From assembly GCA_964016885.1 (NCBI GenBank), contig CAXHJY010000684.1, forward strand, positions 21,308-85,307: a DNA stretch of 64,000 nt, read 5' to 3'. The translations under genes and the position numbers were made by a program. Below are positions 61,492 through 62,837 of this stretch, one piece after another. The first letter of the stretch is position 1, and each line of letters starts with the position of its first letter. The notes under the pieces were generated by a model. That model worked only from the letters and a program-made list of their open reading frames with translations. It made no database searches and was not told the DNA's origin. Source of the DNA: Eledone cirrhosa. Its lineage: Eukaryota.

Positions 61492-62150
<659 letters not shown>

Positions 62151-62162
62151 TATATATATATA

Positions 62163-62375
62163 TTGGGAATCACTGCTTTAGATGGTGAAAATAACGAGGG
62201 TTTGTCTAAGAATACCCTTGAATGAATTTGAAAGAAAACAATGAAGAAATTAACCAATAAACAAAGAAGGAATGAAGAAATAATAAAGAAACAAGAGGGA
62301 GAAAATTTGTGAAATAAGCAAGACGGTCTAGAATTCCATTATAAAATTGTAAAGGGTTTCCACATAAATTCTCCA

Positions 62376-62422
<47 letters not shown>

Positions 62423-62666
62423 TATTGTGCATGTATACTTTATTGCGTCTGTTTGGAGAATTTATGTGGAAACCCTTTACAATTTTATAATGGAATTCTA
62501 GACCGTTTTGCTTATTTCACAAATTTTCTCCCTCTTGTTTCTTTATTATTTCTTCATTCCTTCTTTGTTTATTGGTTAATTTCTTCATTGTTTTCTTTCA
62601 AATTCATTCAAGGGTATTCTTAGACAAACCCTCGTTATTTTCACCATCTAAAGCAGTGATTCCCAA
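62163..62666. repeat. Inverted repeat, 217-bp arms (62163-62379 and 62450-62666)
   Basis: One mismatch seen; left arm bounded by (TA)n on both sides. Confidence 0.95.
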
Positions 62667-62837
62667 AGTGGATTCTGCAGAAGCCAAGGGTTCTGTAAAA
62701 CAGTGTCTGGTGTTCCGTGAAAAAAGGTGGTGGAGTATATTTATATTACGACCATATAACAGTATTAGACGTTGGGTTTCCCTCAAAAGATGCTAAACAT
62801 AAAAGAGTTCCGCGTTTGAAAAGGTTTGGGAAATCCG
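62654..62837. mobile_element. hAT/Charlie-like MITE
   Basis: Begins CAGTGATTCCCAAA and ends with decayed TTTGGGAAATCCG; internal GGTTCTG/GTTCCG sub-terminal motifs. Confidence 0.55.

What the first reader, a model, noticed from the sequence alone, without database searches (positions are those of the whole stretch)
62146..62837. 217-bp inverted copy that captures only the tip of a neighbouring MITE, giving the direction of copying
Seen: the right arm runs 13 bp into a hAT-like MITE (CAGTGATTCCCAA), which continues only on that side. The left arm is enclosed by (TA)n and stops at TTGGG, facing CCCAA of the RTE fragment across a short TA run (CCCAA-(TA)n-TTGGG). Inference: the TA-enclosed arm is the derived, recent copy (one mismatch), made after the MITE inserted and possibly resolved using the CCCAA microhomology.
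Basis: partly seen in the sequence, partly recalled or inferred. Interest (0 to 1): 0.72.

Follow-up and report, generated by a model that had tools for sequence, protein, structure and literature searches.

The report
Foldback duplication at a TA microsatellite
A 217-base stretch was copied backwards into a neighbouring TA repeat, most likely as a DNA-repair or replication error, and about ten similar TA-anchored backward copies in the same 64-kb stretch suggest that TA repeats repeatedly create hairpin-shaped DNA in this animal genome.

Summary
The arms 62163-62379 and 62450-62666 match at 216 of 217 bases. A public run holds a contig of exactly this 217-bp arm, which argues against an assembly error. 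Two corrections apply. The RTE-type LINE ends at 62149, so the match across the TA run is TCCCA-(AT)7-TGGGA. It is an inverted match that needs snap-back synthesis to act as microhomology (0.3% in shuffled array flanks). The locus is also not unique: 12 of 15 low-copy local inverted repeats in the window end within 6 bp of a (TA)n array (1.9 expected), against 1, 0 and 0 for CA, GA and trinucleotide arrays. Best reading: a break or fork stall in a roughly (TA)28 array was repaired by foldback/template-switch synthesis (0.55). Rival: the copy formed while the young LINE's truncated 5' end was being joined (0.3), as described for L1 and R2. The mechanism class is known. The dense, TA-specific pattern in an assembled animal genome did not turn up in my searches.

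The parts
61792..61978 (.). Long imperfect (AT)n array at the 3' end of the LINE fragment (tail and/or target site)
   Evidence: other copies also have TA-rich 3' flanks (loose ends before 61978)
61979..62149 (-). 3' end of a 5'-truncated non-LTR retrotransposon (RTE-type): last 56 codons plus stop; young (2 majority differences in 171 bp in X1)
   Evidence: (match to residues 747-800 of an 801-aa RVT_1 protein)
62145..62168 (.). Perfect 24-bp junction palindrome TCCCA-(AT)7-TGGGA, the proposed snap-back scar
   Evidence: 5 bp or more across an array in 9 of 3046 shuffled flank pairs
62150..62163 (.). Outer (AT)7 cap of the derived arm; T62163 is shared with the arm (1-nt microhomology)
62163..62379 (.). 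Left arm: derived inverted copy, 217 bp, single-copy sequence plus the 13-bp MITE tip
62379..62421 (.). Inner alternating T/A run, 43 nt; with the outer cap about (TA)28 before the event
62422..62449 (.). 28-bp unique spacer skipped by the copy
62450..62666 (.). Right arm: template (original) sequence
   Evidence: 217-nt contig, record 8
62646..62653 (+). 8-bp left flank ATCTAAAG fitting the Buster-type nnnTAnnn target pattern; no matching right copy
   Evidence: pattern from PMC3517528 passages
62654..62832 (+). Old dispersed hAT-like MITE; left terminus intact, last ~6 bp of the right terminus lost; at least 17 majority differences from family reads
   Evidence: (depth up to 38,000 vs 0-13 on the unique part of the arm in X1; loose-end consensus starting CAGTGGTTCCCAAA)
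5330..5503 (.). Sister event: foldback with (AT)12 cap on the right arm, 4-nt microhomology
10871..11173 (.). Sister event: 86-bp arms, (TA)6 cap on the left arm, 118-bp spacer
27198..27383 (.). Sister event: 46-bp arms, (AT)28 cap
27582..29251 (.). Sister event: 212-bp copy enclosed by TA arrays on both sides, template about 1.2 kb away
28313..28631 (.). Sister event: 129-bp foldback across a TA array, with TA cap
33964..34079 (.). Sister event: 53-bp hairpin with (TA)19 cap
48480..48815 (.). Sister event with two snap-backs: a 44-bp copy from the left flank joined to a 17-bp copy from the right flank
50313..50652 (.). Sister event: 152-bp arms, (TA)6 cap
57617..57885 (.). Sister event: about 30-bp inverted copy with (AT)11 cap, beside a TA-linked direct duplication

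Best explanation
The 217-bp copy is a templated inverted insertion (foldback / template-switch mutation, order 1-4-3-2) into a pre-existing (TA)n array. Proposed history: (1) an hAT-like MITE inserted and aged (shown by divergence); (2) a young LINE 3' fragment came to lie in a TA array whose right part was about (TA)28 (lengths shown, order inferred); (3) that array broke or stalled replication as a hairpin/cruciform (inferred); (4) the right end primed synthesis on its own flank, skipped 28 bp and copied 217 bp up to the MITE tip, while the left end folded back over its (AT)7 and copied five of its own bases; this created TGGGA, which paired with TCCCA at the MITE tip and fixed where the copy ends (inferred, snap-back SD-MMEJ type). 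The mirror version, a nascent strand switching to the other template and back at a stalled fork, gives the same sequence. The product is a mutational scar with no shown function, and the same process explains the sister events.
For: 12 of 15 low-copy local inverted repeats end within 6 bp of a TA array (1.87 expected, P=5e-9; CA 1, GA 0, trinucleotide 0); keeping all 20 inverted rows gives 12 of 20, P=9e-7. In 5 of 9 capped junctions the template end matches the TA run over 3 or more bases (null 8%, P=3e-4). Snap-back across arrays recurs: 3 of 28 arrays with non-simple flanks have perfect palindromic flanks of 5 bp or more (null 0.3%), and 48480-48815 shows both ends snapping back. No other fragment of this LINE was found in the window, so the sister events did not need it. 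The summed array of 57 nt is above the (AT)23 fragility length given in PMC12972899. Precedents: yeast local foldback inversions of 10 to over 150 bp (PMC11724301), Pol-theta-dependent small duplications at TA-repeat breaks (PMC13645644), snap-back SD-MMEJ (PMC9303309).
Against: The copy sits exactly at a young LINE's 5' truncation point, and the LINE's age (2/171) cannot be separated from the arms' age (1 in 2x217; P=0.19). The inner junction has only 1 nt of microhomology. 217 bp is longer than the Pol-theta templated insertions described in PMC9303309 (templates within about 50 bp). Three caps are only 6-7 units, too short to be fragile, so the original array length is inferred. No empty allele was seen, and the 5-bp match was picked post hoc. 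The statistics come from one window.
Confidence: 0.55

Rival explanations
1. Co-formation with the LINE insertion. The cDNA (the + strand, 3' end at 62149) was extended over the TA target, snapped back 5 nt, and was joined to a foldback copy of the 5'-upstream target flank while the insertion was being resolved. One event, not two.
For: [quoted passage not shown] The free 3' end that the palindrome needs is the cDNA end. The LINE is young and its age overlaps the arms' age.
Against: Such junctions were 0.3% of L1 insertions (n=3) in that study. The sister events have no fragment of this LINE nearby, so a LINE-independent process is already active in this window.
Confidence: 0.3
2. The TA caps are not remnants of a broken array but were synthesised during repair, by slippage on a short TA/AT end, at breaks of another origin (TA-site DNA-transposon excision or retroelement endonuclease nicks). 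The process would then create microsatellites as well as hairpins.
For: Three caps are only 6-7 units (10871, 50641, 62150). Several template ends begin with ATAT or TATA seeds. The paralogue of the 5242 repeat has no array where the 5503 cap lies.
Against: Most caps are long (11-43 units). The paralogue comparison cannot tell new synthesis from deletion up to an old array. No excision footprint was identified.
Confidence: 0.08
3. Assembly or library artefact (chimeric foldback read at a TA run).
For: No junction-spanning contig was shown in any of 4 runs, only X1 showed the arm, and X1 may be the source sample. Its contig has the left-arm base at the only mismatch.
Against: The X1 contig starts and stops at exactly both arm ends. 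Sister events have 0-6% arm mismatch, which fits mutations of different ages rather than artefacts.
Confidence: 0.04
4. The 504-bp palindrome is itself a transposon (foldback element or MITE), or a product of hAT transposase acting on the MITE end.
For: Both outer ends read as an hAT terminus tip.
Against: The unique part of the arm has near single-copy depth (0-13 in X1 vs 38,000 on the MITE) and no long match elsewhere in the window. There is no target duplication, the break lies 13 bp inside the MITE rather than at its end, and the sister events do not end in this MITE.
Confidence: 0.03

Closest known systems
Four-point template-switch mutation, type 1-4-3-2 / 3-2-1-4 (bioRxiv 10.1101/038380; passages read)
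   Same: A short reverse-complement copy of nearby sequence, switch and return, creating an inverted repeat.
   Different: Here the switch points lie in (TA)n arrays and the copies reach 200+ bp; the word 'microsatellite' does not occur in that paper's main text.
Local foldback inversions at DSBs in yeast (PMC11724301; abstract and section 15 read)
   Same: One end folds back over a loop, synthesises an inverted copy (10 to over 150 bp) and is joined to the other end with 0-5 bp microhomology.
   Different: The yeast events use a 10-bp inverted microhomology and are mostly 5-34 bp; here inner priming homology is about 1 nt or the TA run itself.
Snap-back SD-MMEJ / Pol theta (PMC9303309; passages read) and MMEJ repair at TA-repeat breaks (PMC13645644; abstract and section 10 read)
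   Same: An inverted primer repeat generates new microhomology; TA repeats are break hotspots whose repair yields small templated duplications.
   Different: Those are induced breaks or cancer ecDNA; here the products are fixed in an assembled animal genome, are inverted, and exceed the ~50-bp template range.
Foldback inversion at L1 5' junctions (PMC10191854) and R2 Snapback junctions (PMC11204384); passages read
   Same: An inverted copy of upstream target DNA, 52-220 bp, at a non-LTR 5' junction; cDNA self-priming.
   Different: Rare (0.3%) there; here an (AT)7 spacer intervenes and LINE-free sister events exist.

Membership tests
Template-switch / foldback templated insertion | Insert is the reverse complement of nearby sequence | tested here: met
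   216/217 identity to 62450-62666
Template-switch / foldback templated insertion | Ancestral allele lacks the insert, fixing the four switch points | not testable with these tools
   No genome held; no junction or empty-site contig shown
Snap-back SD-MMEJ | Inverted primer repeat plus microhomology repeat at the junction | tested here: met
   (AT)7 hairpin flanked by TCCCA/TGGGA; null 9 of 3046
Snap-back SD-MMEJ | Pol theta dependence; template within about 50 bp of the break | tested here: inconclusive
   The 5-nt step fits and the 217-nt step does not; enzyme dependence cannot be tested
Non-LTR 5'-junction foldback (L1/R2 type) | Inverted copy of 5'-upstream target DNA at the 5' junction, 52-220 bp | tested here: met
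   LINE on - strand truncated at 62149; 217-bp copy of the upstream flank
Non-LTR 5'-junction foldback (L1/R2 type) | Formed at the same time as the insertion | tested here: inconclusive
   2/171 vs 1/434 substitutions, P=0.19
hAT (Buster-type) MITE, 62654-62832 | Dispersed, high-copy, short element with a defined terminus at 62654 | tested here: met
   Depth peak and loose-end consensus starting CAGTGGTTCCCAAA in 31 X3 contigs
hAT (Buster-type) MITE, 62654-62832 | Terminal inverted repeats at both ends | tested here: inconclusive
   8 bp match; the outermost ~6 bp of the right end are lost
hAT (Buster-type) MITE, 62654-62832 | 8-bp target duplication, nnnTAnnn | tested here: inconclusive
   Left 8-mer fits the pattern; right copy absent
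hAT (Buster-type) MITE, 62654-62832 | Autonomous hAT transposase partner with the same termini | not testable with these tools
   No genome held; the hAT label rests on a recalled terminus type plus the TSD pattern
RTE-clade LINE, 61979-62149 | C-terminus of a non-LTR reverse-transcriptase ORF | tested here: met
   (P0152, RVT_1 at residues 361-622, match at 747-800 of 801)
RTE-clade LINE, 61979-62149 | 5' truncation and simple-repeat 3' tail | tested here: met
   Family continues beyond 62149; TA/TAGA-rich 3' flanks
RTE-clade LINE, 61979-62149 | Placement in the RTE clade by RT phylogeny | not tested
   Label rests on the recalled C-terminal motif; no RT domain in the window
Foldback transposon / MITE (whole palindrome) | Dispersed copies with target duplications | tested here: not met
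   Near single-copy depth on the arm; no TSD

The most novel reading that the evidence does not exclude
In this microsatellite-rich animal genome, (TA)n arrays are a heritable, genome-wide factory of foldback duplications (about one per 6 kb in this window). They may be cut by the endonuclease of a very abundant TA-associated LINE and repaired by two-ended snap-back synthesis that also extends or seeds TA repeats. This self-reinforcing cycle would continually create long hairpins (raw material for new MITE-like elements and double-stranded RNA) and could help explain the genome's TA abundance.
Probability: 0.3. Interest if true: 0.7.

Novelty: new variant of a known kind. Interest (0 to 1): 0.45.

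Why it matters
The single locus is an ordinary repair scar. The pattern is what matters. In the papers I read, TA-repeat fragility and foldback repair come from yeast reporters and cancer cells. Here the products appear fixed in an animal genome at high density, specific to TA arrays, and with 0-6% arm divergence that dates them. If this holds genome-wide, it offers a very large natural sample of dated events for testing how TA breaks are repaired in a germline, whether repair creates or only consumes microsatellites, and how long hairpins arise. It also warns repeat annotators that such palindromes are not MITEs.

Tried and rejected
No whole genome is held, so genome-wide counts and family consensus building were impossible. 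The word-index protein search with the 56-aa LINE peptide found nothing at E<=0.001; the exhaustive search did. Two metagenome scans (LINE motif; SINE motif) gave 0 loci, so no independent genomic loci were obtained. Rfam found 0 matches in 60000-64000. No RNA holder was listed, which is no evidence on expression. Runs X2, X3 and X5 showed no arm contig and no run showed a junction contig; 62369-62430 was skipped as repeat, so these holes prove nothing. Earlier-finding look-ups returned nothing relevant. Across-array palindromes at two other short caps (10871, 50641) are only 1 bp perfect, so I do not count them. The organism was not established: an octopus-like origin is my recollection from the SINE and microsatellite content, and (one Octopus sinensis hit at 68% among 120 listed) does not settle it. 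Rejected: the palindrome as a transposon; hAT transposase cutting; a direct CCCAA microhomology.

Full report
Observation. The inverted repeat is real. The arms 62163-62379 and 62450-62666 align without gaps at 216 of 217 positions and fold with z = -55 against 100 shuffles. The 70-bp interval is a 43-nt alternating T/A run that shares its first base with the arm (62379-62421) plus 28 unique bases. The left arm is closed on the outside by a 14-nt run (62150-62163), which is the centre of a perfect 24-bp palindrome. No whole genome is held. I laid 4 of the 6 listed runs on 61976-62960. Run X1 has a contig exactly 217 nt long covering exactly 62450-62666, with the left-arm base at the one mismatch. 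Assembly graphs end contigs where paths branch (general knowledge), so ends at both arm boundaries indicate two contexts in the reads. Against this: X2 (same sample), X3 and X5 showed no such contig, no junction-spanning contig was among the 32 pieces displayed of about 15,000, the TA run was skipped, and X1 may be the source sample.

The neighbours. 61979-62149 on the minus strand encodes 56 residues and a stop. An exhaustive search gave 333 proteins at E<=0.001. One is an 801-aa protein with an RVT_1 domain, matched at residues 747-800, so this is the extreme 3' end of a non-LTR retrotransposon ORF; the label RTE is recalled from the motif, not tested by phylogeny. Family contigs continue beyond 62149 with a different sequence (87, 70 and 101 contigs in X1, X2, X3), so this copy is 5'-truncated at 62149 and A62150 belongs to the TA run; 7 and 10 contigs in X1 and X2 carry A there. 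In X1 only two positions of 171 (62090, 62105) differ from the majority among the rows shown (18 weaker rows hidden), so the copy is young. Over 62654-62832 depth rises to 38,000 against 0-13 on the unique part of the arm. 31 contigs of X3 give a loose-end consensus starting CAGTGGTTCCCAAA, and 17 positions differ from the majority in X1, at least 9%. The MITE is thus dispersed, begins at 62654 and is old. Its left flank ATCTAAAG fits the Buster nnnTAnnn target pattern (PMC3517528, passages). The last ~6 bp of its right terminus and the right target copy are missing.

Direction. An element at least 9% diverged predates arms 0.5% apart, and both arms carry the same variant tip, so the arm attached to the whole MITE is the template and the TA-enclosed arm is the copy (inference). 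The opposite order needs a longer duplication and then a deletion. The age is a lower bound because adjacent arms can be homogenised.

The locus is one of a series. A self-comparison of the microsatellite-masked window, keeping low-copy pairs within 3 kb, gave 25 rows, 20 inverted and 5 direct. I dropped 5 inverted rows: four are purine/pyrimidine or trinucleotide tracts, and one (52307-52404) was dropped with them but later proved to be a real palindrome around a TA run. Of the remaining 15, 12 have an arm end within 6 bp of a (TA)5+ array, against 1.87 expected (P=5e-9); for CA, GA and trinucleotide arrays the counts are 1, 0 and 0 against 0.63, 0.70 and 1.02. With all 20 rows it is 12 of 20, P=9e-7. 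Unmasked alignments show the array usually caps one arm only, while the other runs on into ordinary sequence, so masking does not explain it. Arm mismatch ranges from 0 to 6% in the 11 pairs measured. In 5 of the 9 capped junctions examined, the template end matches the TA run over 3-8 bases (null 8%, P=3e-4); the focal junction is among the four that do not (1 nt). Among the 28 of 159 arrays with non-simple flanks on both sides, 3 have perfectly complementary flanks of 5 bp or more (10, 12 and the focal 5 bp), against 9 of 3046 shuffled pairs. At 48480-48815 a 44-bp copy of the left flank is joined to a 17-bp copy of the right flank, the two-ended pattern proposed for the focal site.

Mechanism. 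Shown: the copy, its template, the two TA runs, the 5-bp inverted match and the TA specificity. Inferred: an array of about 28 units (14+43 nt) broke or stalled the fork; arrays of 23 units and more are structure-forming and nuclease-sensitive in yeast (PMC12972899, passages). The right end copied 217 nt of its own flank after skipping 28. The left end folded over (AT)7, copied five LINE bases and so made the homology that paired with the MITE tip. This is the logic of snap-back SD-MMEJ (PMC9303309, passages) and resembles yeast local foldback inversions (PMC11724301, abstract and section 15). In sequence terms it is a 1-4-3-2 template switch (bioRxiv 10.1101/038380, passages), so break repair and fork switching cannot be separated. 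TA-repeat breaks yielding small templated duplications are reported for cancer ecDNA (PMC13645644, abstract and section 10). Confidence 0.55.

Main rival. The copy lies exactly at the 5' junction of a young LINE, and the strand that must snap back is the cDNA strand. L1 insertions show foldback inversions of upstream target DNA of about 52-220 bp in 0.3% of cases (PMC10191854, passages), and R2 insertions show snap-back junctions (PMC11204384, passages). LINE and arm ages cannot be separated (P=0.19). No other fragment of this LINE was found in the window, so the sister events do not require it. Confidence 0.3. Lesser rivals: TA caps made de novo (0.08), artefact (0.04), transposon or transposase product (0.03).

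Novelty. The mechanism class is known. Six literature searches aimed at the pattern (judged from listings and abstract starts) showed no report of TA-anchored foldback duplications as a dense feature of an assembled animal genome. In two octopus repeat papers the term search found no discussion of it (PMC13282606, PMC12988792; passages). The library lacks most subscription papers and I read no supplements, so this is limited evidence. The organism is not established. The statistics rest on one 64-kb window. Verdict: a new variant of a known kind; the locus alone is ordinary and the recurrent pattern is worth a genome-wide test.

Noticed in passing
window 61484-61775: A ~290-bp palindromic element (arms ~145 bp, about 90% alike outside a gap) with an internal 10-bp tandem expansion (61580-61619), ending in a (CA)n array; MITE-like, not TA-capped.
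   Followed up: partly
window 26860-27192: A MITE-like element whose left end is replaced by a (TA)5 run and nested short foldbacks resembling its right terminus, inside TA arrays.
   Followed up: partly
window 52250-52520 and 51950-52100: Further nested palindromes and short repeated copies around TA runs (16-bp inverted copy near 52460; 15-bp imperfect snap-back across 52003-52024).
   Followed up: partly
window 4868-5144 and 57441-57954: Two of five local direct duplications also end at TA runs.
   Followed up: no
window 5242-5433 vs 27964-28155; 27932-27994 vs 52305-52365: Two small dispersed repeats that begin or end at a TA array; possibly TA-associated elements.
   Followed up: partly
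window, many copies, e.g. 7645-7838, 17890-18073, 50763-50946, 60009-60200, 63265-63392: An abundant ~190-bp SINE-like family; recalled as an octopus SINE, not tested.
   Followed up: no
window 59480-60200: Three partial SINE copies in tandem facing a fourth in inverted orientation.
   Followed up: no
window 2403-3048, 3255-3686, 44843-45100, 46814-46933: C-terminal fragments of another retroelement ORF with many metazoan relatives; recalled as R4/Dong-type with a restriction-like endonuclease, not tested.
   Followed up: partly
whole window: Extreme microsatellite density: 159 TA arrays of 5 or more units and 9.2 kb masked as perfect short repeats; no host gene was recognised in the ORF list.
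   Followed up: no
window 14262-14655, 25942-26301, 46166-47845: Older inverted pairs (78-82% alike); only the first is near a TA run.
   Followed up: partly
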